A DNA stretch of 64,000 bases from Mnemiopsis leidyi (lineage: Eukaryota): contig CM108484.1 in assembly GCA_048537945.1 (NCBI GenBank), positions 9,123,785-9,187,784 on the forward strand. The letters are read 5' to 3'. Of this stretch, positions 7,802 to 64,000 are shown in pieces; within the stretch, counting starts at the first letter, position 1, and each line of letters opens with the position of its first letter. Under the pieces are notes generated by a model. The model was not told the DNA's origin. It did no database searches and saw only the letters and a list, made by a program, of their open reading frames with translations. The position numbers and the translations under genes were made by a program.

Positions 7802-7897
7802 CTTTATCCCATCTATTTAACTTTATCCCAACTATTTAACTTTATCCCATCTATTTAACTTTATCCCATCTATTTAACTTTATCCCAACTATTTAAC
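7802..7897. repeat. 19-bp tandem repeat (ctttatccca[tc]ctatttaa) x5 in clathrin intron
   Basis: direct reading. Confidence 0.9.
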
Positions 7898-7946
7898 TGA
7901 CTAACAATCTGTATTCTGAAATTTTGAAGTTGTATCTCCAATTTAG

Positions 7947-47952: not shown

Positions 47953-48087
47953 CTGGGTGAGAAGTTCTGTATTTTGAGGACCAAAGTTCAATATTTTGTG
48001 TCCTTGGCAGAACCGTTCATGATAAATAGGACAGGTGCGATCAGACGTAAACAAGGAAATAACAACATGGTTGTTGTTGAAACTCAC

Positions 48088-48232
48088 CGGCAAGTTTAGC
48101 CTTGACTATGGTAGGCTGGCTGTAAACTTTGTAGTGGCCTATACCCCGCTGTCCACACTTGTTTGAACCAAGAGTCCAGATTCTGTCGTAGGCGTCGATA
48201 ACAGCGGTGTGGTCAACACCACATGCTACTTC
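48088..48232 (-). CDS. NEK9: RCC1-repeat exon (EVACGVDHTAVIDAYDRIWTLGSNKCGQRGIGHYKVYSQPTIVKAKLA-)
   Basis: tttCAG acceptor shared with each unit of the adjacent 36-bp tandem repeat; donor g|GTGAGT. Confidence 0.7.
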
Positions 48233-48235
48233 CTG

Positions 48236-48490
48236 AAATACAGAAGGATCAACACCACATGCTACTTCCTGAAATACAGAAGGATCAACACCACATGCTA
48301 CTTCCTGAAATATAGGAGGATCAACACCACATGCTACTTCCTGAAATATAGGAGGATCAACACCACATAATACTTCCTGAAATATAGGAGGATCAACACC
48401 ACCTGCTACATCCTGAAATACAGGAGGATCAACACCACATGCTACTTCCTGAAATATAGGAGGATCAACACCACATGCTACTTCCTGATA
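48236..48490. repeat. 36-bp minisatellite x7, each unit duplicating the 3' splice site and first 22 nt of the adjacent NEK RCC1 exon (minus-strand unit caggaagtagcatgtggtgttgatccttctgtatttcag)
   Basis: direct reading; units are open in the exon frame on the minus strand (EVACGVDPSVFQ)n. Confidence 0.9.
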
Positions 48491-49874
48491 TTATACAGGA
48501 GGATTAAGAGCATGTTAGTGTTAGATGTTATTGAACATTTCATTTTTTCATTATCAAGTATGCATCTACAGCTTGCCTCGTCCAAGCTAGTGTCATCTAG
48601 CTGCATTAGATGTTATGAACAACTTGACGATTATACCATAATCATCATTGCCATACTAACGATTTCGGAGAAGCATTTCGTTTTTCTTGTTAAGCACGCC
48701 CAACTTTTAGATTCGGTTAAATCAGAATGTCGACGACGAAAGGAAACATAATTTAATGCTTCAGTCAAAAAAGGCTATATACTTATAGGCAAAAAAGTAC
48801 TTCAGAAACTTTAAATAATGTTTTTAAGATTGTGTTTGATATATAACAAGGATATGCTAGAAAAGGTTAAATACCCGTCCGAAGAGGACAATAGGCTATA
48901 ATAATGAAGAGTTTCCGACATCATGGCAAGAAAAAGTTGGGAGGAAAGTTGTTATTCTCAAAGCAATGTAAATTTGCCGAACTTGTTTCTAAAATTTAAG
49001 CAGTTGAAAGATCTTAACAGTCTGGATGAAAATTGAAATCACTACATTTCTTGTAGAGTCACCTCAGGTCACCACCACCTAGTACCAGCTAAACTTCCTT
49101 TGATACAGTTTACTCCTGGCTCAAGGAAAAAGTCTTGAAGAACTAACTTGGCCCCATTAGTGTTAATAAATGACAGTTTTGTTATCGAAGGGCACGTAAA
49201 GAGTAAAAAAATTACAGATACCTAGCTAAAGAATACATCCTAAGAAGATATTCCGTCTTAGGAAACCTTGGAACAAAGCTAGTGAAAAAAGCCAAAAGCC
49301 AACACTTAATAACAAGTACAGAATATAATCGTGTAACTTCGATCGCGGAGACTCTCCTGAAGAGCTAGTTTCTATGGACCATGACATAAAGTTAAAGTTG
49401 ACAGACCGTTCAACTAACAACTGTGATGTACCTCGACTCTGTGTTTTCATTCTGCGAAATACAGCTGCTAATTGCTAGAGGTATCACTAGAGCACATCGT
49501 TTTTCAAAAGAGGTGAAGGTCAATCTTCAGTTGGAAACATTCACGGTACCTATTTCACTAATGGGAGCGCTGTAAGGATCGGTCCGGTCGTATATTACTT
49601 TAACAGACGATAAATATTTTGGTCAGTGCTTACGTGGAAAGCACAAAACCTTTTATACTGCATATGTACTGAGAAAAAGAAAATTGAAACATACAGATTG
49701 TTATTAGCTTTAAATGTCATAGATTCAGAAACCAACAGAAAAGTTGACTGTCTTTTGAAATTTATTTAAAAAAACTGTTTTTATATGGGATCATTACTTG
49801 ATGTAGAATGTAGATATAGAATGGCCATGTTTAGAAGGCAAATTTAAGAAATTCTAATTTACGATAATACCAAC

Positions 49875-50014
49875 CCTAACTGCGACTGACGAGAGTCCAT
49901 AGACTGGTTTCAAAGTAAAAGTTTCGCCACACTTTGCTACTTTAGCCCCCTTCCTCCCGATTTTGTTAATACCCAACTTGTTATCTTGATTGTCTCCACA
50001 AGCCATCAATTTCC
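49875..50014 (-). CDS. NEK9: RCC1-repeat exon (GKLMACGDNQDNKLGINKIGRKGAKVAKCGETFTLKPVYGLSSVAVR)
   Basis: tttCAG acceptor, agg|GTTGGT donor; restores the phase between flanking exons. Confidence 0.65.
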
Positions 50015-50823
50015 CTGAAATTCAAATTAAAAATCAAAGATATTAAGGCTTGAGTATAATAATAACGTATCAGGATCTAATAACGTATCAGGATCAATAA
50101 ACGATTTTCCAATTTCAAAAAAATAGACTACCATATCAGGAATATTGGTTTTTGTCAATATCTCTTCCCTGAAGATTTTTAAAAATCGGTTGCTCCGGTG
50201 CTTCACGACACGTACATTTATGTTGCCATTGTACTCATTCTTTAATGATAGTCTAAATCTGAATAAAGCTGAATAATACTGAAAAATAGCCTTTCCTAGA
50301 TCAAAATACAAAAATTTAACCCGATATATCTAGTTGGTATAGTTATTCTCAGATACCAGGAAATTTGGTTAGCAGTATTTTCGCCAAAATTTTCTCTTTG
50401 ATCATTTTGGAGCATAGGTTGCTTGGTAACGGGTATGAAATGAGTTTGTTGAATTGTTGCCCATGTTTTGTTGAGCCGGTTTAGTATCTGATTCAGAAAT
50501 ACACTTTGGTGCGTATAAATGAAAATGTATTTTTCGCTAATATCTCTTTTTCTGATCATGAAAAGATAATTGTGCAGTGATTTGAAGCTTATTTTAAGTC
50601 ACTAAGACCTTTTTGGACCAAATTAAAATATCGAATTCCAATTTTCTCGATTCCGATTACCGAAAAATCAACTGTTAAATTGGAGTTGGATTGCCCCCAC
50701 CAATGGTAATACTTCAGCCAGATGTGTTAGAAAATGAAATGCTATGATGAACAGACTGGTTTACAAGGTTTTCTTCTTTAATTTCAGATAATTGAAAAAA
50801 GTGTAAGTTTAAACGATTCCTAC

Positions 50824-50969
50824 CCCCGGTTGTGATGACAAACGAGCAGTGTCTTCCGCAAGCAACCTTAGCAAACTTGGTACCTCGGATCTCCAACTTC
50901 TGAGGAATGTAAAGTATGTCTTCACAGTCGTTGCCAAGGCACCCGTATTCTCCATTGCCCCATCCGTAT
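50824..50969 (-). CDS. NEK9: RCC1-repeat exon (LYGWGNGEYGCLGNDCEDILYIPQKLEIRGTKFAKVACGRHCSFVITTG-)
   Basis: tgtgCAG acceptor, GTAGGA donor. Confidence 0.75.
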
Positions 50970-51319
50970 CTGCACAGTGACAAGTTCAATTGTTACGACT
51001 GAGGTTTCCTAAATTTCCAGAAGGCATTGATTACAGCATTGGCCTTCTTATGTTGTAGGTTACGTAGTGTCTCGTTTCATAGGTGAAAGACCGTACATAC
51101 AAGGTTGACAAGTAGAATTTGGATCTTATTAAAGATCAATACTTAAATACACTAATAAGTTTCTCTATCATGGATAACTTTTAAACCAGATAACGAATCT
51201 AATGTTAAGTGCCAATTGAGTAACAATTAAGTCACAATCAAGTAACAATCAAGTAACAATTAAGTAACAATTAAGTAATTACAGTTAAGAAACAGTTAAG
51301 TAACAGTTAAGTAACATAC

Positions 51320-51495
51320 AAGTCGCCGTCCAGAGTAGTAGCCATGACGTGTGCATCTCCACAAGACACACTGGATATTGCGACGCCGTTGAAGAATGGC
51401 ACTGGAGTTGGGACTAGATAGTTATCCACCTCCTCCCCAAGTCCAAGACACCCGTCGTAGTTGCTACCGAACGCTACCTGCAGTTGTTGGATAAA
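51320..51495 (-). CDS. NEK9: RCC1-repeat exon (FIQQLQVAFGSNYDGCLGLGEEVDNYLVPTPVPFFNGVAISSVSCGDAHVMATTLDGD-)
   Basis: ctcccgCAG acceptor, GTATGT donor; ends in phase 2. Confidence 0.75.
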
Positions 51496-51586
51496 CTGCG
51501 GGAGGAACTAAGTATATCAAGTAGAATATTGGTTTCAGGAAATATTACTGTCAAGTGTAACTGTTAGTCGGGAAGTAAGTACGAAC

Positions 51587-51753
51587 CAGCTGATGCTGCT
51601 CGTCATACTCGTCCTCTACGACTGCCAGAGTGAAGTCCTCCCCGGCCACCACGTCCACCACCCCACTCCCCACCAGATGTTCTACTCGTTTAGGTGACCT
51701 GTAGCTGGCTTTGTCACCGTGCCCTAGCTGTCCGTACATTTCACCGGGCTGTC
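51587..51753 (-). CDS. NEK9: RCC1-repeat exon (GQPGEMYGQLGHGDKASYRSPKRVEHLVGSGVVDVVAGEDFTLAVVEDEYDEQHQL)
   Basis: GQLGHGD RCC1 signature; ccctcAG acceptor, GTTCGT donor. Confidence 0.75.
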
Positions 51754-51940
51754 CTGAGGGTGAAATCTTGTTGTTATTATATACAAGGGAATTTAGGATT
51801 CAAAGTCATATTCTGGTCACATTTACATGATTTAGTTGACACTAAACAAATCAGTTTTAATTTCAAACGAAAGTGCTCCATTCTTCTGGAGACATTTATA
51901 ACATTCTCCAATAAATGCTATCCAAGCAGGATGTGGGTAC

Positions 51941-52082
51941 CTGATGACCAGACATAGAGCTCCTTCTCTACAGTCACTACACAGAAATGTTTTGGTGCTA
52001 CACACACTCTTACAGCTCCCAGGTCCTTCTTGAACGTAGCCAGGGTCTGAGGTGAGGTTTTGCCTCCTCCCCAAATGTACAC
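51941..52082 (-). CDS. NEK9: RCC1-repeat exon (VYIWGGGKTSPQTLATFKKDLGAVRVCVAPKHFCVVTVEKELYVWSS-)
   Basis: RCC1 consensus (vy.wG ... v.cG..h..alt..g.vy.wG); tttCAG acceptor, GTACCC donor. Confidence 0.75.
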
Positions 52083-52439
52083 CTGAAAGTTGCAGTGAGA
52101 TTTGATCCAGCTCGAGTTGTGATTAATTTGATGAACCACGAGACCATGTTTCCTTTTCGCCGCAGATCTAATGTTATTGGTTATGTGTTATGGTTGATTA
52201 CCCACAGCAACTTAACTCAGTGGCTCGAACGTAGACTGAAGTCTTCTTCACGCTACACTGTATAGAGAACGTTTTTTGGGGAGGAATCACGAATTTCCTT
52301 TGCCATTCGACAGCTGTCAACTATTGAACAATGAGAAGCCAGGTTTGATCAATTAATATCGCACATACAAGTTACGAAAACAAATTTGCGACATCTCCGT
52401 AGGAATGTCGCGCTCTATTGAGAGTGGTTTATATTGTCG

Positions 52440-52520
52440 CGGTTTTACACTCGCTCAAAGGTGAACCTTTCGTTAGAACGGAACACGGATACAGGATACT
52501 ATCTCGACAAGGTTAATACA
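52440..52520. repeat. Third (partial) copy of the dispersed repeat family (gtcgcggtttt..tcgttagaacgg..ggatac..tctcgacaag)
   Basis: motif sharing with 15628-15700 and 44580-44700. Confidence 0.5.
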
Positions 52521-53253
52521 AGGGCGAGTCTTTGGAGTTTGGGCCCCAAGCTCTTTTGGAACCATTTAACAGTTGACTCTTCGCTTATTCTAATTTCTAA
52601 CCTCCCAATAACTCATTACTCATTATGTCGAGCGATGCTAACTAATATCAGCATGATAGTGATGTTGTCTGTAATTGATGCTAGCTGCTAGCGAATAAGG
52701 CTAGGTAGTGACCAAAACAACTAACGCAAGTAACCAGACATGATCGATGCTTGAATTACTTATTTTAAACAATAACGAAGAGAGCTTCAGTTTAGAATTA
52801 GCTTATAAACAATACGCGCGCGTGGTTTATACATATATACGCGCCAAAATGTTGCACTAAATGCGTTTATTGAAGAATTGAATAATAAAATTTAAATTCG
52901 GCGCTAGCGCGTTCCATACTTGGCGACGATCTATGAACTCTATCGATTGAAGAGTGTTTTTTCGGAAAAGCGACAACCTTCTGTCATGATAATACTTGAT
53001 ACGTATACCGTAATAATGAATCATAACAATAAACAAGAGTTTTTGCCATGAGGTTGAATAACACATCAGAAATTCACACATGGAATAATCAGTGATATTG
53101 AAAAAGAAGGATATTGAAGTGTAAACAATATCGATACGCTGATGAAACAGTATATCGATTTGACACAATCATGACAACAATTCGAAAGGACTGTGCCAGG
53201 AGGCAAGCCACCAGCTGCCGGCGACTAAGCTAACAGTTAACAAGCCTACTTAC

Positions 53254-53415
53254 TTCAGAGCTGAGGTTGGTGAGAACTGGCTGTCTTCCGGGTGACAGCT
53301 GCGAAAGACCTCGGACGTAATTTTGGGGACCTAACCGCTCTTCTAGAATCTTCTCGCACCCCTTCATGTAGGGGGTGTCTAGTATATCTTGCACGGTGGG
53401 CCGATTATCTGGATC
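53254..53415 (-). CDS. NEK9: NEK kinase-end exon (DPDNRPTVQDILDTPYMKGCEKILEERLGPQNYVRGLSQLSPGRQPVLTNLSSE)
   Basis: matches NEK NPRDRPSVNSILEKGFI; donor gaa|GTAAGT. Confidence 0.75.
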
Positions 53416-53589
53416 CTGAGTTAGAGAAAGTGTGTTAGATTGATGATGAAATTTGTTCTGATGTGGTTACAATGTACATTCTTACAGGTCTATTGATATA
53501 TGCGTGAGACTGCAGCTGATTGTTTTCAGCACTCTTTTGTTTTCAATCACAAGTCTAGCTAGCTATGTATCGCCTTTTAGTGAACATCA

Positions 53590-53850
53590 AATGTGCCAAC
53601 TTGTGTCGGTTTGTGTGCCAGTACGTTAGCATGTGTGTCAGTGTGTGTGTCAGAATATATGTCAGTATGTCAGTATGTGTGTCAGTATAAGTTTGTCAGA
53701 ATATATGTCAGTCTGTCAGTATCTGTGTCAGAATATATGTCAGTATGTCAGTATGTGTGTCAGTATAAGTTTGTCAGAATATATGTCAGTATGTCAGTAT
53801 TTGTGTCAGTATGTGTGTCAGAACATATGTCAGTGTGTCCTGGTATGTCA
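53590..53850. repeat. Tandem repeat (gtcagtatgtgtgtcagaatatatgtcag.. ~57-bp period) in NEK intron
   Basis: direct reading; the ORFs at 53593-53913 are repeat artefacts. Confidence 0.9.
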
Positions 53851-54127
53851 GTTTACAGTTATGGCCAGCTAGCTAGGCTAGTGTACCCGGAAACATACCG
53901 ATCATTAGATTAGCCCGAACTGTAATTACAGTTCTGGGCTACATCTGAACTTGTAAGAAGTTACTATGACAGTTACTATAGCACATATTATTCAGAAATA
54001 TGTACTGTGTACATCACTCAACTTGTAGGAGCGGTGGTTTCTCAGAAATGCATCCTGATTGATATCATGCACAAAAAAATTTAGAGGTCGCTAACAAATT
54101 ACTTAGAACAATATATAGACGTATTAC

Positions 54128-54193
54128 CTTTTGTAACATGCTTGTCAGTATGTTTCTCAAATCTTGGCTCCATGACTCGCTGACCGGCTTGAA
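54128..54193 (-). CDS. NEK9: NEK kinase exon, subdomain X-XI (FKPVSESWSQDLRNILTSMLQK)
   Basis: matches NEK PP.S..YS.DLR.LVSQLFKR; tttCAG acceptor, GTAATA donor. Confidence 0.8.
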
Positions 54194-55610
54194 CTGAAAT
54201 GTTAAGTTGAAAATATTTATGGTCGAACATTCAGCAGTGCTGCCTACTTTAATCAACTACCAGGAAATAGAAACATTTCTCCACGAGACTCGAGTTCGTG
54301 AAATTGACGAACAACATATCCCGGACCTCAGTACTATGTTTGGTATGTTGGCGGTCGCCAAATGTAAGTCTTACATGTCAGACATTTCGAAACCTAAAAC
54401 CAGCTAGACTCATTAAACCTTCGACATGGGCATTAAAAATTCGCCTTAAAATTTGGGAACAATTTTCAAAGGCAGTCAATGTCTGTTGTATTTTCTCTGC
54501 AGTGTGCGTGTCTACTGTCTAAAGCCGTTTATTATTTATACCACTTTTCACCTTCTAGATGCACTAAACGGTTGGACCTATCATTTAGACAGATCATCAA
54601 CTTCCCCAAGTGTTGTCCGTGATTCCCGTACACAGTTCGGACTGATTGATCGGGCGGCAAATAGATTTCCTGGAGGCTTTACCAGCCTTTCTTGTACCGC
54701 ACCAACGAGATAAAACATTGCACACCATCAACTAGAAGATCCTTAATCCATGCAATTATATACAAGGATAAGATATTATGCGTTTACGTGGTCAGAAATG
54801 ACAATATAATTAACAAGGTCATTGCAAAATTACAATTCAAAATTTATTGGCAGCAATTAGACGTGATTAAAATTGCTGCTAACGAGCCGAGACATACAAA
54901 TACTCGATTGTTTGATCCTTCGTACTCCCGCGGTCGATTTGTTACTTCTTCAGAGTGTGCTATGAAGTAAAATCGCGATGAAATAGTTGTGATTAGACGG
55001 TGATATCCAACGGCGGGTTGGATAGGTATTTTCCATCCAATAGAAGAGCTGCAGTGTTGATATTGTACTGTGCGATCGACCAATCAGAGCCGAGAGTTCA
55101 ATTTGTCCTGCTTCACCAAGATCAAGATAGCTAATAAATCATTCTACATGTTCACTTTGTGTTTTTCATTTCGGAACTTTCCGAGAAGGCGTTTAGATCA
55201 GAAGCGTGAAAAGCCAGGATATTGGTTAGACGGTACTTATGGAGTTAACCCGGGTAATTTTTCCCTGGTAATTTTTCCCAAACTCTTTTTGGTCTGATTC
55301 ATCTAAGACGTGGATGGCATAATTGATAATTTCGAAGTTTTCGTAAACACTTAGGCCGACAAGTTTCCATTATATATAAAAAGTTGACGGCATTTATTAA
55401 CATTAAGTTGCATAGCTCTTCTGATATATTAAGCGTTACAGAAGTAGCCAATTTGCTTTTTTGTCCGAGTTTTGTATATATAATTTTTTCTTGTGCATAA
55501 ATCTAAGGAATCCACCTTCCCAAACATATCATGATCATAATTTATTCATTTAAATTTTTCTATTCAAAACGACTACCATCCCTCAGCCTCTCATTCTCAG
55601 ATAGAAAAAT

Positions 55611-56585
55611 ATGGTAAATCCAGCCCTGCCAGACCCGACACTCATCTTGGCAGGTATTCTTACCCAAATAACATTCGAGAAGATAGTGGTGCGGACAAAA
55701 CTTGAGAGGCAGCTATCCCTCGACAAGAAATATTTTGAGATATCCTGGAGATTAGCAATCTTCAGTAAATATCCCGGTCTAGGCTGGCTACAGATAATTT
55801 TGTTGTCCAGTGTTGTTACCATCTTTTCCGTTCTGAGGACACCAAGAAAACATAGACTGGCTAGGGGAATCTTAACTTTATTTTTAACTTTCATTTTCAA
55901 TGTCAGTGTGGGAAGTGTTGGATTTACAGAGATCTATAACGTGGACGAACATCTAGAATATCGGATAACTCTGGAGTACTTCCAATACGCGACAACACCG
56001 ATATTCGCTTCTGCAGCGGTGGTAGTTGTGGGGAACTACCTGAAGATTCCCCGAGGAAGAACCACAGTTCGATTCGACCTGCGTACAGATAGGACAGAAG
56101 AAACGTCCCTCAGATCCCTCCTGAAGACTTACTCGCCGGGATCAGCGGTTCTTCTGACGGGGGTCTTTGCTCAACTTACTTTCGAGAAGTTATTCAGCAT
56201 TCTTATCACCTCCTACCCTACAGCGCCTGATTTCTGTGCACTGCGCGGCATCGGCAGCTGGATCCAACTTCTTTCCCTCTCTACTTTCCTTGTTTTCATC
56301 GTTCTGTGTGTGCGATCTGGCCCAAACAGGTTGTCTCAGGGGACAGTTACCTTTTTCTTCTCATTTATCTTAAACTTTAGTCTCGGTCACATCGGAGAGA
56401 TGGGAACATATTGTGGTAGTCAGTACAGCTCCAGAGTAAGGGACGTTTACAGGTATGGGACAATTCCTCTGGTCGGACTAACCGCTCTTGTTTGTTTTGC
56501 TGGTTTTTTGGTGACATTCGAGAAAGGCCGGAGTTCGGGAAACCCTCAGTGCCAACTTTCCAGAAGGGACACTGTTGCTGCATAA
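55611..56585 (+). CDS. Intronless ORF, 324 aa, predicted 8-TM membrane protein built from two homologous 4-TM halves; nested in a NEK intron on the opposite strand; no recognisable family
   Basis: long stop-free ORF in otherwise AT-rich intronic DNA; eight hydrophobic segments; halves align (LILAGILTQITFEKIV.. / AVLLTGVFAQLTFEKLF..; GILTLFLTFIFNVSVGSVGFTEIY / GTVTFFFSFILNFSLGHIGEMGTY). Confidence 0.4.
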   Translation: MVNPALPDPTLILAGILTQITFEKIVVRTKLERQLSLDKKYFEISWRLAIFSKYPGLGWLQIILLSSVVTIFSVLRTPRKHRLARGILTLFLTFIFNVSVGSVGFTEIYNVDEHLEYRITLEYFQYATTPIFASAAVVVVGNYLKIPRGRTTVRFDLRTDRTEETSLRSLLKTYSPGSAVLLTGVFAQLTFEKLFSILITSYPTAPDFCALRGIGSWIQLLSLSTFLVFIVLCVRSGPNRLSQGTVTFFFSFILNFSLGHIGEMGTYCGSQYSSRVRDVYRYGTIPLVGLTALVCFAGFLVTFEKGRSSGNPQCQLSRRDTVAA

Positions 56586-58197
56586 GAAATTACCTCGTGT
56601 TACTGAGACGTTTCGACCCTCACTAAATCTTCAACAAATTACGTTATGGGCACTCTAGCGTGGTTATTTTAGTGTCTTAGCTTTTTGTCAAAGCCTCATT
56701 GAGCAGACCTGCTAGAGCCAAGTACACTAAGTGTAGCTCTATATATAGTATAGTATAGTAGTACCTGCTCAGTCACCAGTGACTGTTATTTCTGGACATT
56801 GTTGTAAATTTTTTTACAAAATTTAAAGCAAAAACATAAAGCAAACCTATCGGGACAAAATCTCTGATGACCTGAAGCTGATCGACCCTTACACATATCA
56901 ATTACTCTCTATATAAAAAGATGGTTGGAAGCTTTGACAATATAACTTTTATCATATTTCTTTTATATTCCTAAGACAGTAACTGCTAGTCAGTGAGGAT
57001 TAATAATTTGTATTTTTTAGTGCGTGAAATTTACTTTATCTGGTTTGTGATTCTAAAGAGAGGAGAGTTTGACAAATCAATATGTTTCAGATAAAAATTT
57101 CGAACTTAAATAATCAGATCAAATAAGGTCCTGAAAACCCATAACCAAACTGATTCCAACAAAATATTTCCAGATTAAGCTGTCTAAACTCTAGAACATT
57201 ATTAAATCGAGAGGATAGCAGAAAACTTACCTATTTTTACGCAATGCCGTCATGAACTTGAGCTATTTTAAAAAGATAAGGTCCGCATTTGGAAAATCAC
57301 GCGTTATCTCAGTCCCGACAAGTCAACGACCTAATACTCAGTACCAGGTTACGAACTTTTGCTTTGTTTGGGACGATTTTCCGGGAGTAAAATTTGTTTA
57401 TCGAGGTGGGAGAACCTATCACAGATACTTTACTTGTGTAGACAAAGGAAAATGAGCGTATTCTGGAACAATTAGGTATGCGGTTTATATTAGGAGATAT
57501 AGGTTGGCTTACATGAGGTTTATGGTAGAAAAAGTTTGAGATATCTCAAACTTACACCTAAATAACTATAGAGCATAGCGTGTTTACTTCCCCTAAACTG
57601 AAGATTTAGGTTCTCATGAACGGACTTACCAACAATATCAAAAAGACTGGCACCTACCTTACTTTAAGTAAAACTGCTTATCGAAAACGAATTGAGATCT
57701 TCAAGTTAAAATTAAGTTTACCTTTTACTCTGTATACAAAATGACGTAGTAAAAGCTGAAAGTTAAAACTCGCCTAGTAAAGCTACTTCACGACAAAGTA
57801 CAAGTGGAAGTACAAAACACCTCTCTTGAACGACAAAGTACAAGTGGAAGTACAAAACACCTCTCTTGTACTTGGTGGGGTTCCCAGGACAAGACAAGGT
57901 GTTACTTCTTTTAACCAACCACACACAACACTGAACACAACACTACTACACGATATCTTAACGCGACACTACACTACTACACGACATCGTAACATGGCGT
58001 GTTCTGATGTTAGACAGAACATTACCGACATGACATTAGAACTGAAATTAATATTGAAGTATAGAAAATTGTATTTGTGCACTGTGTATCTTCCACAATG
58101 TACTTTGCACACCTTATTTAGTTAAATTGTACAATATACTTTAAAATACATTTTCAATTTCACAATATTCAGTGTATGATGTATAAAAGTATCTCAC

Positions 58198-58327
58198 CTC
58201 TTTAGTAACGATACTGTAAACAAGACGAAGCTGGTTTGTGGCGTCGAAAGTCTTGCGTAGCTCCAACATCTCATATAGAACACAGCCACACGACCAAACA
58301 TCACTCTTGTAACCGTACGGTAAACCC
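58198..58327 (-). CDS. NEK9: NEK kinase exon, subdomain IX (GLPYGYKSDVWSCGCVLYEMLELRKTFDATNQLRLVYSIVTKE)
   Basis: matches NEK Y..KSDIWSLGCVLYEL...F.A; acceptor ttttgCAG, donor GTGAGA. Confidence 0.8.
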
Positions 58328-58334
58328 CTGCAAA

Positions 58335-58510
58335 AGCAATGAGATCACTTGGTTACTTGGTTACTTGGTTACTTGGTTACTTGGTTACTCGTTTACTTGG
58401 TTACTTGATAACTCGTTTACTTTGTTACTTGTTTACTTGGTTACTCGGTTACTCGGTTACTCGGTCACTCGGTTACTTGGTTACTCGGTTACTTGGTTAC
58501 TCGGTTACTT
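58335..58510. repeat. Short-period tandem repeat (ggttact[ct]g)n immediately 5' (minus sense) of the NEK kinase exon
   Basis: direct reading; ORF 58236-58553 is an artefact. Confidence 0.9.
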
Positions 58511-59107
58511 GGATCTAACCGATAATCTCGAAAACCGTGTATTGATTTTCTAGGTTCTATTTAGAAATAAATGTCCGGACCGGTTTAAATGATAAAATGG
58601 CTAATCTTCACTGCGATTTTAGTTAAATTTGATCCTTATGATATTGCCCTACTTCCACTATTAAAGAGAGTCTACAAAAGAAACAGTTTAAAATGAGAAT
58701 ATTGAAAGCACTGGCCGGAAATCTACGTCATGTATTTGAATATACGTGTATGTGCCTCTGAACTTCTTCCACAAAGCAATTTCTCACACGTCAATCCCAT
58801 TGTTGTCCAGGGTCCTTCCATTGTCGACATTTATGAGATAATACAGAGGTAGTACATCAAAAAAGGAGCAAAACAATGTGAAAGTGTGGGACCTAGAAAC
58901 GCGCTAGTATCATAACAAGACGTTTTCGACTGAGTATCTGTCTCGACAATGGAACTCCTTTCCGCAAGACGGACATTGGTCCTCATTGTCTAATTCCATT
59001 GTCCTTTGTACAAAGATACCAGCTAGCTCCATCATTCCGCTCATTTTTACTTGTGCGCACCAGATCGCCAAACGTTAGTTGACGTTAGTTGGATTTGATT
59101 TCGTAAG

Positions 59108-59259
59108 ATGGAGAAGTTGGTTTTGTTAACACTACTGGGTGTTGCTGCTGGAGAGCTGGTAAACATCGCCCCCAATGGCACTATCAGCGCTACTTCAATT
59201 GGGTGGGGTGGTGCCCCCAGCAGGGCCATAGATGGAAACACTAATGGTTATTGGGGCGG
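59108..59259 (+). CDS. FTL gene exon 1: signal peptide + domain-1 part a (MEKLVLLTLLGVAAGELVNIAPNGTISATSIGWGGAPSRAIDGNTNGYWG-)
   Basis: ATG 59108; donor gg|GTGAGT. Confidence 0.85.
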
Positions 59260-59386
59260 GTGAGTTTAAATATATTGAGAATTAAATGCTGTCGTCAGAA
59301 AATCAAAACTTTGATCTGACTGAAAAATGTAACTTTAGCTGGCATCTCTACTAAAATCCCAGACTGTAAACATTTCACGTTCTCAG

Positions 59387-59531
59387 TGGATCCTGCTACC
59401 ACTCAGCCTCGTGGCAAGGAAGCAAACTGACCCTGGCTCTGCCTGGAGAAGAGTTTGGAGCAACCTGGCCGGTTTACAACGTCAGTGTTTTCAACAGACT
59501 CGACACGTGTTGTGATCAGCGGATACAGGGC
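59387..59531 (+). CDS. FTL domain 1 part b (GSCYHSASWQGSKLTLALPGEEFGATWPVYNVSVFNRLDTCCDQRIQG)
   Basis: tctCAG acceptor, GTGAGT donor. Confidence 0.85.
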
Positions 59532-59714
59532 GTGAGTATTGAGTATAAATAGTCTCATTTGTGCGGTATACGTGGATATGTAAAATGTATCACTCGAGAT
59601 ATTATTTTGCATGTGCATATTTGAAGAAAAATTAACCGGGGAAACCGATTCCCAAACAAGAATGTCTCCCCCAACTCCTCTGCCAGCAGTAAAACTATTT
59701 TCCCCGACATTCAG

Positions 59715-59868
59715 GTAGAGGTGTGGCTAGATGAACACATGTGTGGTGCTCTCACGTTTGTGGAAGGACAGAAGGAGTACATGGTTAACTGTGAGGGTAA
59801 GACCGGTAGTATCGTCACCGTACACCATCCCTCTCAGTACCTACAGATTTGTGAGCTTCAAGTGTTTG
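59715..59868 (+). CDS. FTL domain 1 part c (VEVWLDEHMCGALTFVEGQKEYMVNCEGKTGSIVTVHHPSQYLQICELQVF-)
   Basis: cattCAG acceptor, g|GTGAGT donor. Confidence 0.85.
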
Positions 59869-60134
59869 GTGAGTTTCTCCTCTGTAATTTTTAATACAAT
59901 TATATATATATTCAGAATTGGATAAAACATATAAGGATAACCTTGAAAAAATATTCAGTTTAGTTTGCAGTAAAAAACCTCTATACCTAATTGTCGCGGT
60001 GAACCGGCTCATGATGCTTGCAGCTCCACTGCAGTAGCCACTAAAAATTGCATGGCAGAATGCCTGCAATAGTTGCTGCTTTACATGGCCAGCAGTATAG
60101 TCATATTAACGATGTCTAACTTTACTCACTCCAG

Positions 60135-60270
60135 TTGACTCATCCTACACACCCGACATACCGACCTATGTCAATGTAGCCAAGGAGGGCTCTGCCAGCG
60201 CCACCAGTGTAGGTTGGGGCGGAGTAGCAAGCAGGGTCATGGACGGAAATACCAACGGATACTGGAACGG
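60135..60270 (+). CDS. FTL domain 2 part a (VDSSYTPDIPTYVNVAKEGSASATSVGWGGVASRVMDGNTNGYWN-)
   Basis: cactcCAG acceptor, gg|GTAAGT donor. Confidence 0.85.
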
Positions 60271-60449
60271 GTAAGTAGAGTCGAGTATTTTCTTAAGAAA
60301 TCAGAGTCTAACTCAAGTTATCAAGGATAGCATGAATTAGTTCACATGTTCACATGTTGAATGATCTACTGCATCCTTGTTTCATTGTTTGGTAAATGAA
60401 TTTTTACGACAAAGTCTTAAATCTCGAACTAAATAACTTTCCTTAACAG

Positions 60450-60594
60450 ACAGTCGTGCTATCACTCCGGTAACGCGAACAACAACAGAGTGACAGTGTC
60501 CCTCCCGCACTCAGAGATAGGTATCACCTACCCTGTGTCCATGGTCAGGGTCTACAACAGGATGGACTCTTGCTGCGATCAGAGGATTGAAAAT
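60450..60594 (+). CDS. FTL domain 2 part b (GQSCYHSGNANNNRVTVSLPHSEIGITYPVSMVRVYNRMDSCCDQRIEN)
   Basis: ccttaaCAG acceptor, GTAGGG donor. Confidence 0.85.
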
Positions 60595-60743
60595 GTAGGG
60601 CACTAGGACAGTAGGGCACCGTGTTTAAAGTTTGCTTGAAATAAATCCGTCAGCTAGTTATCCCCGTTGCAATATCTGTTGGAGGTAAGGTAATCTTGAC
60701 GTGTTAAAAACCCTAGACATTGAAATCATAACATCAATTGCAG

Positions 60744-60897
60744 GCACAGGTGTTTGTTGGTGATCACATGTGCGGACAGATCAAGTTCGTAGAAGGTAAA
60801 AAAGCGTACTCGTTTGACTGTGGTCGGAAGAACGCTAGCGAGGTTTCAGTCAGACTTAGTTCAGGCTGGCTCCAAGTCTGCGAAATTGAAGTTCTTG
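60744..60897 (+). CDS. FTL domain 2 part c (AQVFVGDHMCGQIKFVEGKKAYSFDCGRKNASEVSVRLSSGWLQVCEIEVL-)
   Basis: aattgCAG acceptor, g|GTAAGA donor. Confidence 0.85.
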
Positions 60898-61118
60898 GTA
60901 AGATTCTGAGATAATGCTTCTCAAACGGTTTGCTCACTAAATGACAAGCTGATTTGTTAATTGGTGATTACGAAAAAAGGGTTCCAATACACATCGATTT
61001 TTTTGTTTACCAATTCTACTCCTTAACAATCGCCTCTTTGTAGTTATTGACTACTAGCTTTATGACAGTTGCATGCTTGCAAATGAAAATTTCACAAATA
61101 TAGTGGTTCATTAATCAG

Positions 61119-61257
61119 TTTTGGAGGAAGACATACCAACGGACATTCCCAATTTCATTAACGTTGCGATAAATGGTACAGCTTCTGCTTCATCTGTTAG
61201 TTGGGGAGGTGTAGCAGCTAGAGTTAATGATGGGGACACAAACGGATTTTGGGGAGG
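61119..61257 (+). CDS. FTL domain 3 part a (VLEEDIPTDIPNFINVAINGTASASSVSWGGVAARVNDGDTNGFWG-)
   Basis: ttaatCAG acceptor, gg|GTAAGT donor. Confidence 0.85.
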
Positions 61258-61267
61258 GTAAGTTGAA

Positions 61268-61400
61268 CGCTGAGCGTGTGTAACAGTGTAACAGTGTAAC
61301 AGTGTAACAGCGTAACATTGTAACATTGTAACAGCGTAACAGCGTAACAGTGTAACAGTGTAACAGCGTAACAGTGTAACAGTGTAACAGTGTAAGTTTG
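61268..61400. repeat. (gtaacag)n heptamer microsatellite starting 10 bp after the domain-3a splice donor
   Basis: direct reading; ORFs 61111-61481 (-) are artefacts. Confidence 0.9.
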
Positions 61401-61553
61401 TCGTGTTTGTTTGTACCACGTAACAGAGCTAAATATATCCCAGACAGGCCATATCACATATGTAACCACCTTAATCGTCAACCTGAAATCCTGGTAATTA
61501 ATTACTTTTCAATTTAAAATTGCTCCACCTAGTCCACATTCCCACCATTCCAG

Positions 61554-61701
61554 ACGATCCTGCTACCACTCAGTAGACCGTGCCGGACAACACCAAGTGG
61601 CAGTTTCACTTCCTGCCGGAGAGTTCGGTATCAAGTACCCGGTATCTTTTGTCAATGTCTACAATAGACTCGACTCGTGTTGTGATCAACGTCTTAACGG
61701 T
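61554..61701 (+). CDS. FTL domain 3 part b (GRSCYHSVDRAGQHQVAVSLPAGEFGIKYPVSFVNVYNRLDSCCDQRLNG)
   Basis: ccattcCAG acceptor, GTAAGT donor. Confidence 0.85.
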
Positions 61702-61939
61702 GTAAGTAGAATTCTTTGTCGTTTATTTATTGATTGTTCCCAGGGTAACAATATGTTAACTCCGGTTAATTGACAATGAAAGACATATGGTGAGCACATA
61801 GTTTACTTGAATGCCAAAGATATCAACTCTTCGACTGTGAATAGTACAAGCAGAGTAAAACTAGAAAGCCGAACTCAATACTGATCTCGGGGCTCAGTGA
61901 GGATAAACCTGACGATACTAAATATCCTAATCCACTCAG

Positions 61940-62096
61940 GCGATGGTTTACGCTGATGAGCACCAGTGTGGACAGGTCCAGTTCAAAGAGGGACAGCAAG
62001 CCTACACGTTTGACTGTGGTGAAAAGGAAGCTAGCGAGGTTTCTGTTAGATTGAGTAACGGACAGTCTCTCCAAGTGTGTGAGCTCGAGGTTTTAG
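61940..62096 (+). CDS. FTL domain 3 part c (AMVYADEHQCGQVQFKEGQQAYTFDCGEKEASEVSVRLSNGQSLQVCELEVL-)
   Basis: ccactCAG acceptor, g|GTACGA donor. Confidence 0.85.
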
Positions 62097-62261
62097 GTAC
62101 GACTTATCGATCGTCATGATTATCACACAATATTTCGGTTTCTATAGGCGATCTATATATGAGGTCACGTATATATATATATATATATATATATATTCAC
62201 GATGCGCAAGAAGTGTCAGAAGTAATTCATTTAAAAATATATTCACAGTACTAACAATAAC

Positions 62262-62430
62262 AGTAACCAACAGTACTCTCTCTTCACCAATCACAGTAAA
62301 AATGATAACACTCTCTCTTCACCAATCACAGTAAAAATGATAACACTCTCTCTTCACCAATCACAGTAGAAATGATAACACTCTCTCTTCACCAATCACA
62401 GTAGAAATGATAACACTCTCTCTTCCCCTC
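62262..62430. repeat. 38-bp tandem repeat x4 (ctctcttcaccaatcacagtaaaaatgataacact) ending in the acceptor of FTL domain-4a exon; each unit is a degenerate copy of that 3' splice-site region
   Basis: unit ...ataacactctctcttcaccaatcacag vs real acceptor ataacactctctcttcccctcag. Confidence 0.85.
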
Positions 62431-62432
62431 AG

Positions 62433-62571
62433 TCCTGGAGGAGAACATGCCCACTAACATCCCCGTCTTTACTAACGTGGCTCTCAACCGACCTGCTGCC
62501 CAGAGTTCTGTAGGCTGGGGTGGTCAAGCCTCTCGAGCAGTGGACGGTAACATCAACAAGATGTGGGGCGG
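62433..62571 (+). CDS. FTL domain 4 part a (VLEENMPTNIPVFTNVALNRPAAQSSVGWGGQASRAVDGNINKMWG-)
   Basis: tcttcccctCAG acceptor, gg|GTGAGT donor; contains the canonical AQSS ... AVDGN. Confidence 0.85.
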
Positions 62572-62721
62572 GTGAGTAGAGGGTAACGATATCTTAGGAA
62601 TCGTAACACATGAGTAGATAACATAAGTTCGAACGCAGTTTCTGACATTAACACTGACATTAAACTATTTGTTTACGAGATCTTGTAGGAAATGTTGGTT
62701 AAACTAACGACCCCTCTACAG

Positions 62722-62854
62722 CGGGTCGTGTACACACACTTCTCAACTTACTGGTAACTGGTGGAAGGTAGAACTAGACAAGGAGGAGTACATCCAGAAC
62801 GTGGTAATACACAACCGTATCGACTGTTGTTCTAACAGACTCAACGGAGCTAAG
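62722..62854 (+). CDS. FTL domain 4 part b (GGSCTHTSQLTGNWWKVELDKEEYIQNVVIHNRIDCCSNRLNGAK)
   Basis: ctctaCAG acceptor, GTAATC donor; canonical SC.HT..WW.V.L..NR.DCC..R. Confidence 0.85.
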
Positions 62855-63300
62855 GTAATCTTGTCAACTTCCTGTTATAGTGGCTGTAAAATTTTGTTCG
62901 GAAATGTTTTTACCGCAGTAGTGGCGTGTGCCTTAAGCGCATCAGCTCGGCTTTCTTATATGCCAAGCTGGTAGGTGGTAAGATCTTCTTCTGAATTTTC
63001 GGCACGCGGAAACACACGTCTGGTCGCGGGGGTTTTTCGTAACTTGAAGTTTTCAGTGGCCATGGCTTGTTATTTCGTTCATCAACGACATACGCTATTT
63101 AGTGCACAAAAATGAAAGAGCTATAATGCGGTTAAAACATCCATTTGCTAATGGAAATTTGTAATTTGAAACTAGTTTTTGGAAAAGTGATACTTACATC
63201 TTTATAGATTGCATAACGCCACAACATTATTATCATGGCGATTATTCATTCGCCAAACAAGATTATGTGAACCAATAATGTAATAATGGGACCGTTTAGC

Positions 63301-64000
63301 AGACAAAATCCCTGATCGTGCAGGTGAAGAACGAGTTAAGAATTCTTGTTCCCGCAGGTTTGGGTGAAGTACGTGTAAATAATTCTTCTTCCCGCAGGTT
63401 TGGGTGAAGTACGTGTAAATAATTCTTGTTCCCGCAGGTTTGGGTGAAGTACGATTAAAGAATTCTTGTTCCCGCAGGTTTGGGTGAAGTACGAATAAAT
63501 AATTCTTGTTCCCGAAAGTTTGGTTGAAGTACGAATAAATAATTCTTGTTCCCGCAGGTTTGGGTGAAGTACGATTAAAGAATTCTTGTTCCCGCAGGTT
63601 TGGGTGAAGTACGAATAAATAATTCTTGTTCCCGCAGGTTTGGGTGAAGTACGAATAAATAATTCTTGTTCCCGCAGGTTTGGGTGAAGTACGATTAAAG
63701 AATTCTTGTTCCCGCAGGTTTGGGTGAAGTACGAATAAATAATTCTTGTTCCCGCAGGTTTGGGTGAAGTACGAATAAATAATTCTTGCTCCCGCAGGTT
63801 TGGGTGAAGTACGAGTAAATAATTCTTGTTCCCGCAGGTTTGGGTGAAGTACGAGTAAATAATTCTTGTTCCAGCAGGTTTGGGTGAAGAACGAGTTAAG
63901 AATTCTTGTTTCCGCAGGTTTGGGTGAAGTACGAGAAAATAATTCTTGTTCCAGCAGGTTTGGGTGAAGTACGAGTAAATAATTCTTGTTCCCGCAGTTT
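63301..64000. repeat. 40-bp minisatellite x~17 (gtttgggtgaagtacg[at][ag]taaataattcttgttcccgcag); each unit is a 3' splice site plus an exon start resembling the first 16 nt of an FTL part-c exon
   Basis: compare cag|gtttgggtgaagtac with real part-c exon starts cag|gtagaggtgtggcta, cag|gcacaggtgtttgtt, cag|gcgatggtttacgct; units hit an in-frame TAA after 6 codons. Confidence 0.85.

What the first reader, a model, noticed from the sequence alone, without database searches (positions are those of the whole stretch)
63301..64000. Minisatellite made of ~17 tandem copies of a 3' splice site plus FTL exon start (decoy acceptors)
Each 40-bp unit ends in a pyrimidine tract + cccgcAG followed by gtttgggtgaagtac, which resembles the real acceptor plus the first codons (V-x-V-W/F/Y..DEH) of the part-c exons of FTL domains 1-3. 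The expected part-c exon of domain 4 has not appeared by the window end. The array looks like an expansion of that exon-intron junction. Each copy would terminate translation after 6 codons, so it offers many cryptic acceptors with a premature stop.
Basis: seen in the sequence. Interest (0 to 1): 0.6.

Follow-up and report, generated by a model that had tools for sequence, protein, structure and literature searches.

The report
Splice-junction minisatellite in ctenophore lectin intron
In a comb-jelly (Mnemiopsis leidyi) lectin-like gene, the end of one intron plus the first bases of the next exon has been copied at least 17 times in tandem; this is a "mirage" minisatellite, a kind already described in amphioxus, and the finished mRNA skips all the extra splice acceptors.

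Summary
A 40-bp unit is repeated 16.9 times (93% alike) from 63323 to the window end. It lies in the intron after exon "D4b" of a four-domain secreted F5/8-type-C / F-type-lectin-like gene of Mnemiopsis leidyi.

Three RNA-seq transcript assemblies and a 600-aa database protein show the missing exon D4c. It starts GTTTGGGTGAGCAAGAACGACGAG (VWVSKNDEW). The unit reads ...ttcttgttcccgcag|GTTTGGGTGAAGTACGAGTAA, so the first 10 bases match in register, and the edge copies match 17 of 20.

The orthologous intron has one junction copy in Bolinopsis microptera and two diverged copies in a closer relative.

Of the 15 canonical acceptors, 13 would give VWVKY[V/D/E]-stop. All three transcript contigs join D4b to the real exon, and none contains repeat sequence. 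Use of the decoys is therefore unshown.

This matches the "mirage" minisatellites of amphioxus and mirrors the human F7 intron-7 VNTR. A second clear case lies at 48213-48488 on the minus strand. A random 40-bp duplication in this compact gene spans a junction about 21% of the time, so no special mechanism is needed. It is a new member of a known kind, of modest interest.

The parts
62722..62854 (+). Exon D4b of the lectin-like gene. It ends ...CTC AAC GGA GCT AAG (LNGAK), phase 0, followed by the donor gtaatc.
   Evidence: An 11-exon model with clean GT-AG sites gives a 534-aa ORF. Three transcript contigs match it at 100%.
62855..63317 (+). Unique 5' part of the D4b-D4c intron. It is orthologous to L002 11958-12460, and its 3' half (63131-63305) is unusually conserved.
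   Evidence: Alignment A1. Windowed identity is 0.47-0.56 in the 5' half and 0.73-0.86 in the 3' half, with stops in all six frames.
63318..63357 (+). Unit 0, the edge copy: GTGCAG GTGAAGAACGAGTTAAG AATTCTTGTTCCCGCAG. It is the least homogenised copy. Its GTGAAGAACGAGT stretch is the closest to the real exon sequence GTGAGCAAGAACGACGAGT, and it ends in the first decoy acceptor (AG at 63356-63357).
   Evidence: It shares 31-36 of 40 positions with other units, whereas internal units mostly share 35-40 with each other.
63358..63997 (+). Units 1-16, consensus GTTTGGGTGAAGTACGAGTAAATAATTCTTGTTCCCGCAG. Each is about 19 nt derived from the exon D4c start followed by about 21 nt of intron 3' end (pyrimidine tract plus cAG). 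In exon phase it reads VWVKY[V/D/E]-TAA.
   Evidence: Derivation from the exon start is shown.
63438..63797 (+). Higher-order block: three repeats of a 120-bp triplet of unit variants (GATTAAAG, GAATAAAT, GAATAAAT). Units 3, 6 and 9 are identical, and units 7, 8 and 10 are identical.
   Evidence: Identity matrix; lag-3 identity is 0.952 against 0.936-0.938 at lags 1, 2, 4 and 5.
63998..64000 (+). First three bases (TTT) of unit 17. The array is cut by the window end, so its true length and the genuine acceptor lie beyond 64000.
   Evidence: The mRNA beyond D4b has no match in the window.

Best explanation
This is a junction-spanning ('mirage'-type) minisatellite. The host is a Mnemiopsis leidyi gene for a secreted protein with four F5/8-type-C / F-type-lectin-like domains.

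Origin (shown in part, inferred in part): a segment covering the last ~21 nt of the D4b-D4c intron and the first ~19-25 nt of exon D4c was duplicated in tandem. This happened after the split from Bolinopsis, and probably before the split from the closer relative whose contigs are L002/L003.

Expansion (inferred): in the M. leidyi lineage the duplicate grew by replication slippage or unequal exchange to at least 17 copies. The array shows a 120-bp higher-order period and a poorly homogenised edge copy, which fits this. The extra copies lie upstream of the real exon and so are intronic.

Consequence at sequence level (shown): each copy carries a complete-looking 3' splice site, followed by exon-like GTTTGGGTGAAG and then an in-frame TAA.

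Splicing (shown for steady-state mRNA): the mRNA joins the D4b donor only to the authentic acceptor that is followed by the real exon.

Why the authentic acceptor wins (inferred, not tested): only that acceptor is followed by a full 158-nt exon with its enhancers and a downstream donor, so exon definition would favour it. Any decoy-spliced RNA would carry a premature stop and be removed by nonsense-mediated decay.

Overall, the array is most likely a tolerated by-product of a high minisatellite birth rate in a compact gene, not a selected device.
For: - Array: period 40, 16.9 copies, 93%; 15 matches against 0 expected; per-unit table.
- Gene and organism: 11 exons, 534-aa ORF; P0001, 600 aa, 100% identical; the cluster contains KAL5256618.1 of Mnemiopsis leidyi; four PF22633 stretches.
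- Real exon: searches give AK|VWVSKNDEW..., with DNA GTTTGGGTGAGCAAGAACGACGAG.
- Match of unit to exon: one search gives 10/10 identity in register (11 of 5000 shuffles reach the score) and 17/20 for the edge copy (1 of 5000).
- Orthologous intron. L002 has two 57-nt copies about 72% alike, and copy B is the real acceptor. The M. leidyi unit aligns to copy B, and B plus exon aligns to unit plus mRNA.
- Outgroup. Bolinopsis has a 338-nt intron with a single junction and no tandem repeat of the junction.
- Relatedness. L002 exons are 79-96% identical in protein to M. leidyi, against mostly 62-78% (39-78% across all segments) to Bolinopsis.
- Turnover signature: (higher-order repeat, divergent edge unit).
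- Normal splicing. Three independent runs (SRR26183978, SRR26183973, SRR26183976) all read GCTAAG|GTTTGGGTGAGCAAG and contain no repeat k-mers.
- Chance expectation. In this gene 21% of random 40-bp segments span a junction, or 31% of the non-exonic ones.
- Same architecture elsewhere: 48213-48488 on the minus strand; L002 9178-9267 at a donor; the tail of P0023.
- Precedent: PMC3087553 section 16 and PMC1557585.
Against: - The genomic sequence between 64000 and the real exon was not obtainable. That the last unit is contiguous with the exon is therefore inferred from the mRNA and from the orthologue, not read.
- Assembled transcripts show only abundant, stable isoforms, so low-level or NMD-degraded use of decoys cannot be excluded.
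- The pyrimidine tract and AG are almost invariant among units while positions 17-19 vary. Selection on the acceptors would produce that pattern, but so would recent homogenisation with few mutations.
- It is not proven that the two-copy state in L002 and the M. leidyi array descend from one duplication.
Confidence: 0.8

Rival explanations
1. Functional decoy acceptors. The array is kept because its many cryptic 3' splice sites divert some pre-mRNAs into stop-containing, NMD-targeted products or into intron retention. Copy number would then tune lectin output.
For: Fifteen intact cag|G acceptors have pyrimidine content within the range of real acceptors. Thirteen lead to a stop after 6 codons. 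The acceptor part of the unit varies least. The intron is at least 1146 nt, against 127-336 nt for the other ten introns.
Against: No transcript contig (0 of 3) uses a decoy or contains repeat sequence, and no protein in the cluster carries the decoy tail. The array is absent in Bolinopsis. The closer relative has only two copies, and the upstream one has decayed, so there is no sign of conservation. Uniformity of the units is explained by recent expansion (93% identity, higher-order repeat). Junction-spanning duplications are expected by chance in 21-31% of placements.
Confidence: 0.1
2. Recursive (ratchet) splicing. Each cag|GT unit would be a zero-length exon, so the long intron is removed stepwise and the decoys are harmless intermediates.
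For: Every unit places an acceptor AG directly before GT. Splicing D4b to any unit regenerates AAG|GTTTGG.
Against: The regenerated donor GTTTGG has T at positions +3 and +4. None of the 11 donors of this gene resembles it; they are GTGAGT, GTAAGT, GTAGGG, GTAAGA, GTACGA and GTAATC. The real exon starts with the same GTTTGG and is not re-spliced.
Confidence: 0.02
3. Unrelated satellite or transposon fragment that resembles a splice junction only by chance.
For: The window is rich in minisatellites (35 TRF rows). The resemblance to the domain 1-3 junctions is indeed at chance level.
Against: The unit occurs nowhere else in the 64 kb. It matches the true exon start 10/10 in register, and the edge copy matches 17/20. 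The flanking intron and the unit itself align to the orthologous intron end and exon start.
Confidence: 0.03
4. Assembly artefact: the copy number or even the array comes from mis-assembly of a short duplication.
For: The array reaches the window end, and no second M. leidyi genomic copy could be read.
Against: The units carry ordered variants and a 120-bp higher-order pattern. An independent annotated assembly also places an intron between D4b and D4c and shows a second array at the D4c donor (P0023). A relative has two copies at the same place.
Confidence: 0.03

Closest known systems
'Mirage' minisatellites of amphioxus (Adh3: Canestro et al. 2002, NAR 30:2871, cited in PMC3087553 but not readable here; globin genes BflGb6/BflGb9: PMC3087553 section 16)
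   Same: Both are tandem minisatellite-like duplications that span an intron/exon boundary. BflGb6 in particular duplicates the 3' end of an intron plus the 5' part of the next exon. In both, many copies keep AG/GT signals, normal splicing is not disturbed, the array interior evolves in concert and the edge copies escape homogenisation (here).
   Different: The phylum differs (ctenophore, not cephalochordate). The unit is shorter than in the globin cases (40 bp against 150-160 bp) but within the Adh3 range of 10-72 bp. There are more copies here (at least 17, against 3-6 in BflGb6). Length polymorphism and somatic instability, shown in amphioxus, were not tested here.
Human F7 intron 7 37-bp VNTR (PMC1557585)
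   Same: It is a minisatellite whose first element spans an exon/intron boundary. That gives a row of identical, potentially functional pseudo splice sites that normally stay silent while one authentic site is chosen.
   Different: F7 duplicates the 5' splice site, and the most upstream site, next to the exon, is used. Here the 3' splice site is duplicated, and the most downstream site, next to the exon, is used. The true mirror of F7 is the 30-nt array at the D4c donor, inferred from the tail of P0023 (GKCSGRVEVL repeated).
Intron gain or change by tandem duplication across AG|GT proto-splice sites (Rogers model; examples PMC2891723, PMC4974935, listed but not read)
   Same: A tandem duplication that includes splice signals puts extra signal copies into the transcript, and the spliceosome removes the duplicated segment.
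   Different: No new intron or exon is created here. An existing intron is simply lengthened.
Regulatory decoy 3' splice sites and decoy exons (for example the caspase-2 In100 element and decoy exons in retained introns; recalled from memory, not checked here)
   Same: These are intronic sequences with 3' splice-site features that are not joined into the main mRNA.
   Different: Those elements are conserved, single, and shown experimentally to bind splicing factors and change splicing. None of that is shown here, and conservation was tested and not found.

Membership tests
Mirage (junction-spanning) minisatellite | Head-to-tail array of a minisatellite-sized unit | tested here: met
   Period 40, 16.9 copies, 93% matches; 15 matches against 0 expected.
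Mirage (junction-spanning) minisatellite | The unit contains both intron-end and exon-start sequence of one real junction | tested here: met
   After the cAG, the unit equals the first 10 nt of exon D4c as read from mRNA, and the edge copy matches 17/20. The intron part aligns to the orthologous intron end.
Mirage (junction-spanning) minisatellite | The array is contiguous with the genuine junction, so the terminal copy is the real splice site | tested here: inconclusive
   The window ends inside the array and M. leidyi DNA beyond it could not be fetched. In the related species, copy B is the real acceptor.
Mirage (junction-spanning) minisatellite | Regular splicing of the host mRNA is maintained | tested here: met
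   Three transcript contigs from three runs join GCTAAG|GTTTGGGTGAGCAAG and hold no repeat sequence. Proteins P0001, P0023 and P0026, P0028, P0029 (the last three encoded by those contigs) all read AK|VWVSKNDEW.
Mirage (junction-spanning) minisatellite | Concerted evolution inside the array, with edge copies left out | tested here: met
   Internal units mostly share 35-40 of 40 positions, and some are identical. Unit 0 shares 31-36 of 40. A 120-bp higher-order repeat is present.
Mirage (junction-spanning) minisatellite | Length instability among haplotypes or individuals | not testable with these tools
   Only one M. leidyi genomic copy was available. Between species the count is 1 (Bolinopsis), 2 (L002/L003) and at least 17.
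Recursive splice site (ratchet point) | Acceptor AG directly followed by a consensus-like donor (GTRAGT) | tested here: not met
   The sequence after the AG is GTTTGG, unlike any of the gene's 11 donors.
Regulatory decoy splice site | Conservation of the decoy across related species | tested here: not met
   It is absent in Bolinopsis. The relative has two copies about 72% alike, and the upstream one has a decayed tract.
Regulatory decoy splice site | Demonstrated engagement by the spliceosome, or an effect on isoform ratios | not testable with these tools
   Raw RNA-seq reads could not be mapped. Only assembled contigs were available.
RNA structure that masks splice sites | Folding more stable than shuffled controls | tested here: not met
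   For the whole array z = +2.69, and all 20 shuffles fold at least as well. For a 120-nt block z = +0.84.
F-type lectin (fucolectin) domain, host gene label 'FTL' | Fucose-binding motif H-x26-R-x-D-x4-R/K (motif recalled from memory) | tested here: met
   Counting by eye on the / protein, domain 4 has H-x26-R-I-D-CCSN-R. Domains 1-3 have H-x31-R-L-D-x5-R and so deviate. Pfam names all four PF22633/PF00754.

The most novel reading that the evidence does not exclude
Junction-spanning minisatellites may be a common, functionally exploited feature of ctenophore genes rather than rare accidents. Two clear and two to three probable cases turned up in one 64-kb window and its orthologues. Some units are open in frame: 36 nt reading EVACGVDPPIFQ at 48213-48488, and 30 nt reading GKCSGRVEVL at the D4c donor. 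Others carry stops, like this 40-nt unit. Array length could then act as a heritable, fast-mutating dial. It would either lower expression through unproductive splicing and NMD, or add peptide repeats through alternative use of the duplicated sites. The arrays would also offer a natural system for asking how a spliceosome picks one of 17 or more identical acceptors.
Probability: 0.1. Interest if true: 0.65.

Novelty: new member of a known kind. Interest (0 to 1): 0.35.

Why it matters
The array shows that boundary-duplicating "mirage" minisatellites also occur in a ctenophore. In the papers I could read they are described for amphioxus, and as a single human case (F7). Several occur within a few kilobases here.

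It is a natural test case for 3' splice-site choice. At least 15 near-identical, competent-looking acceptors lie between the donor and the one acceptor that is used.

There is a practical side for annotation. In GenBank model KAL5256618.1, the sister array at the D4c donor appears to have misled gene prediction. The model reads through the donor into the repeat and lacks the true C-terminus VPEEAPTEVIDEE.

The finding does not reveal a new mechanism.

Tried and rejected
1. Fetching M. leidyi DNA beyond 64000 failed.
- Exact look-ups of P0001, P0023 and the 324-aa window ORF 55611-56582 found no gene on record.
- The single metagenome scan with the D4c peptide returned only two distant (51-53%) short contigs.
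- A protein search with the two RCC1 exons of the host gene found nothing.

3. RNA structure that hides the decoys is rejected. The array folds less stably than shuffles.

4. A known RNA family in the intron is rejected. The only Rfam matches are two far below gathering score, both on simple repeats.

5. Recursive splicing is rejected because the regenerated donor GTTTGG is poor.

6. A dispersed repeat or transposon is rejected. The unit is found only in this array, and the unique intron part has no direct repeats and only two weak inverted pairs.

7. The 1888-nt contig L008 looked like an aberrant isoform. It differs by a single-base indel in exon D2c, not by use of the array.

8. The large arrays at 1267-2351 (clathrin intron) and 7802-7898 were checked for junction origin. 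They lie about 105 and 50 nt from the nearest splice site and show no exon-derived part. Not every minisatellite here is a mirage.

Full report
**1. What is in the sequence**

Tandem Repeats Finder reports an array at 63323-63997: period 40, 16.9 copies, 93% matches, no indels. The consensus unit matches 15 times with 3 or fewer mismatches. All matches lie in this array, and 0 are expected from shuffles.

Read in splice register, the array has three parts:
- an edge copy, unit 0, at 63318-63357;
- sixteen full units at 63358-63997, consensus GTTTGGGTGAAGTACGAGTAAATAATTCTTGTTCCCGCAG;
- three bases of a seventeenth unit at the window end.

Fifteen units end in ...ttcttgttcccgcag followed by GTTTGG. 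Unit 4 has lost the AG, and the last AG is followed by TTT.

**2. The host gene**

Domain-4-like peptides located four related domains on the plus strand. From these I built an 11-exon model, 59108-62854, with canonical GT-AG sites and consistent phases. It gives a 534-aa open reading frame with a signal-peptide-like start, and it ends ...RLNGAK|gtaatc in phase 0.

A database search found P0001, 600 aa and 100% identical over the whole query. Its cluster contains KAL5256618.1 of Mnemiopsis leidyi, so the organism is this ctenophore.

Three Logan RNA-seq contigs match every exon at 95-100% (most at 98-100%). They come from runs SRR26183978, SRR26183973 and SRR26183976.

Pfam finds four PF22633/PF00754 (F5/8 type C) stretches. 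Only domain 4 carries the classical F-type-lectin motif H-x26-R-x-D-x4-R. The motif is recalled from memory and the count was made by eye on the protein sequence.

The gene sits on the opposite strand inside a kinase-plus-RCC1 gene. This is annotated in Bolinopsis, and RCC1 exons are present on the minus strand of the window.

**3. The missing exon and its relation to the unit**

The proteins and mRNAs continue AK|VWVSKNDEWQECG...LCEVEVL|VPEEAPTEVIDEE. The exon DNA is GTTTGGGTGAGCAAGAACGACGAGTGGCAG....

- The ten bases after each unit's AG equal the first ten bases of the exon, in register. Only 11 of 5000 shuffles reach that score.
- The edge-type copies (GTTTGGGTGAAGAACGAGT...) match 17 of 20 with one 3-nt gap. 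Only 1 of 5000 shuffles reaches that score.
The other junctions of the gene score 8-15. That comparison is therefore at chance level.

**4. Comparative evidence**

L002 and L003 are two contigs from ENA assembly ERZ25070731. They carry the orthologous gene of a closer relative: 79-96% protein identity per exon to M. leidyi, against mostly 62-78% to Bolinopsis.

Their D4b-D4c intron is about 605 nt and aligns with the window intron along its length. At its 3' end it has two 57-nt copies, about 72% alike, of intron end plus exon start. Copy A has a decayed acceptor, and copy B is the real acceptor. The 40-nt M. leidyi unit aligns to copy B.

In Bolinopsis microptera (L007) the intron is 338 nt. 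It has a single junction and no tandem repeat of that junction.

The exon start VWV....EW is conserved in all three species, so the exon is ancestral and the repeat is derived from it. The series of 1, 2 and at least 17 copies supports a junction duplication followed by expansion in the M. leidyi lineage. A single shared origin for the two-copy and 17-copy states is an inference.

**5. Array dynamics**

Units 3, 6 and 9 are identical, and so are units 7, 8 and 10. This gives a 120-bp higher-order period. Unit 0 is the most divergent. That is the usual signature of unequal exchange, and it is the pattern reported for amphioxus mirages.

**6. Would the copies work as acceptors?**

At sequence level they look competent. 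Pyrimidine content is 0.56-0.72, against 0.44-0.83 for the ten real acceptors of the gene.

Spliced to D4b, 13 of the 15 give VWVKY[V/D/E]-stop.

All three transcript contigs use only the authentic acceptor, and none contains any repeat k-mer. The six cluster proteins read for the region (P0001, P0023, P0026-P0029) agree: none carries the decoy tail. Five of them (P0001, P0023, P0026, P0028, P0029) span the junction, and three of those are encoded by the same contigs.

The array RNA has no unusual structure (z = +2.69 for the whole array, +0.84 for a 120-nt block). No Rfam family matches. The regenerated donor GTTTGG resembles none of the gene's donors, which argues against recursive splicing.

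I infer that the last acceptor wins because only it is followed by a real exon and a downstream donor, and that any decoy products are lost to NMD. This is not tested.

**7. Is a special mechanism needed?**

Introns in this gene are 127-336 nt and exons 133-157 nt. A random 40-bp segment therefore spans a junction in 21% of placements, or 31% of those that are not wholly exonic.

The window has about 15 arrays with units of 8 bp or more. Two are clearly junction-spanning and one is possibly so, which is in line with that expectation.

**8. The same architecture elsewhere**

- 48213-48488, minus strand: 7.7 copies of tccttctgtatttcag|GAAGTAGCATGTGGTGTTGA lie directly upstream of an RCC1-repeat exon that begins GAAGTAGCATGTGGTGTTGACCAC. 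The 36-nt unit is open in the exon frame.
- 62275-62425: a 35-bp unit repeated 4.3 times abuts the D4a acceptor and shares its pyrimidine tract.
- GenBank model P0023 ends ...CEVEVL(GKCSGRVEVL) repeated about 7-8 times. This implies a 30-nt array spanning the D4c donor, into which the gene model reads.
- L002 9178-9267: three copies of TATG|GTAAGT... span the D1c donor.

**9. Comparison with what is known**

Ebner et al. [quoted passage not shown] They are called "mirages" and were first reported at Adh3 by Canestro et al. 2002. BflGb6 duplicates an intron 3' end plus an exon 5' part. According to that paper these arrays do not disturb normal splicing and show concerted evolution.

The human F7 intron-7 VNTR is the 5' splice-site counterpart (PMC1557585).

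Full-text searches for such arrays in ctenophores found nothing relevant.

**10. Verdict**

The origin hypothesis is supported. The decoy function is unshown and unlikely to be selected. The feature is a new member of a known kind.

Noticed in passing
window 48213-48488 (minus strand); exon continues to about 48090: A second clear junction-spanning minisatellite, in a different gene. It has 7.7 copies of 36 bp, tccttctgtatttcag|GAAGTAGCATGTGGTGTTGA, directly upstream of an RCC1-repeat exon that starts with the same 20 nt (EVACGVDHTAV...). The unit is a multiple of 3 and open in the exon frame (EVACGVDPPIFQ), so use of an upstream copy would add 12 residues in frame rather than a stop.
   Followed up: partly
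beyond the window; protein P0023 (KAL5256618.1) residues about 587-660: The GenBank model ends ...LTLCEVEVL followed by GKCSGRVEVL about 7-8 times, instead of VPEEAPTEVIDEE. It appears to read through the D4c donor into a 30-nt minisatellite made of the last four codons plus a GTAAG donor. Exon D4c would then be flanked by junction-derived arrays on both sides, and the deposited model would be mis-annotated. No DNA was available to confirm this.
   Followed up: partly
window 62275-62425: A 35-bp unit repeated 4.3 times at 99% identity (ACTCTCTCTTCACCAATCACAGTAAAAATGATAAC) runs into the pyrimidine tract of the real D4a acceptor (actctctcttcccctcag|TCCTGG at 62414-62432). The unit has its own ...cacag, followed by a stretch only weakly like the exon start (about 8 of 14). 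It is possibly an older junction duplication. The orthologous site in L002 is single copy.
   Followed up: partly
L002 9178-9267 (related ctenophore): A 30-bp unit repeated three times, TATG|GTAAGTTTCTTAAGTTTTAATATTTG, spans the donor of exon D1c and gives three tandem donor sites. M. leidyi has a single donor at the orthologous site (59868|59869).
   Followed up: partly
window 63131-63305: The 3' half of the D4b-D4c intron is 73-86% identical to the related species. That is close to exon level, while the 5' half is about 50% identical. All six frames contain stops, and no Rfam family matches. Its function is unknown; it could be a regulatory element or an unannotated RNA.
   Followed up: partly
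window about 48000-64000 and L007: The lectin-like gene lies on the opposite strand inside a large kinase-plus-RCC1 (NEK-like) gene. In Bolinopsis this is annotated as a 945-aa protein with Pkinase and RCC1 domains. The window has RCC1 exons on the minus strand at 50714-50989 and about 48090-48212, and L002 has kinase-like ORFs downstream.
   Followed up: partly
window 61278-61395: (GTGTAACA) repeated 14.8 times starts 20 nt downstream of the D3a donor. It gives a weak, sub-threshold Rfam microRNA hit that is a low-complexity artefact.
   Followed up: no
window 1267-2351 and 27814-28843: Two large minisatellites: 31 bp repeated 35 times at 98% identity, and 62 bp repeated 16.6 times. The first lies in an intron of what looks like a clathrin heavy-chain gene (identified by eye from the flanking translation), about 105 nt after the donor, and shows no exon-derived part. 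The gene context of the second was not established.
   Followed up: partly
window 59108-62854, protein domains 1-4: Only domain 4 keeps the classical F-type-lectin motif H-x26-RxD-x4-R. Domains 1-3 have H-x31-RLD-x5-R and lack the WW.V.L signature. 'FTL' is therefore strictly apt for domain 4 only. Pfam calls all four F5/8 type C (PF22633).
   Followed up: partly
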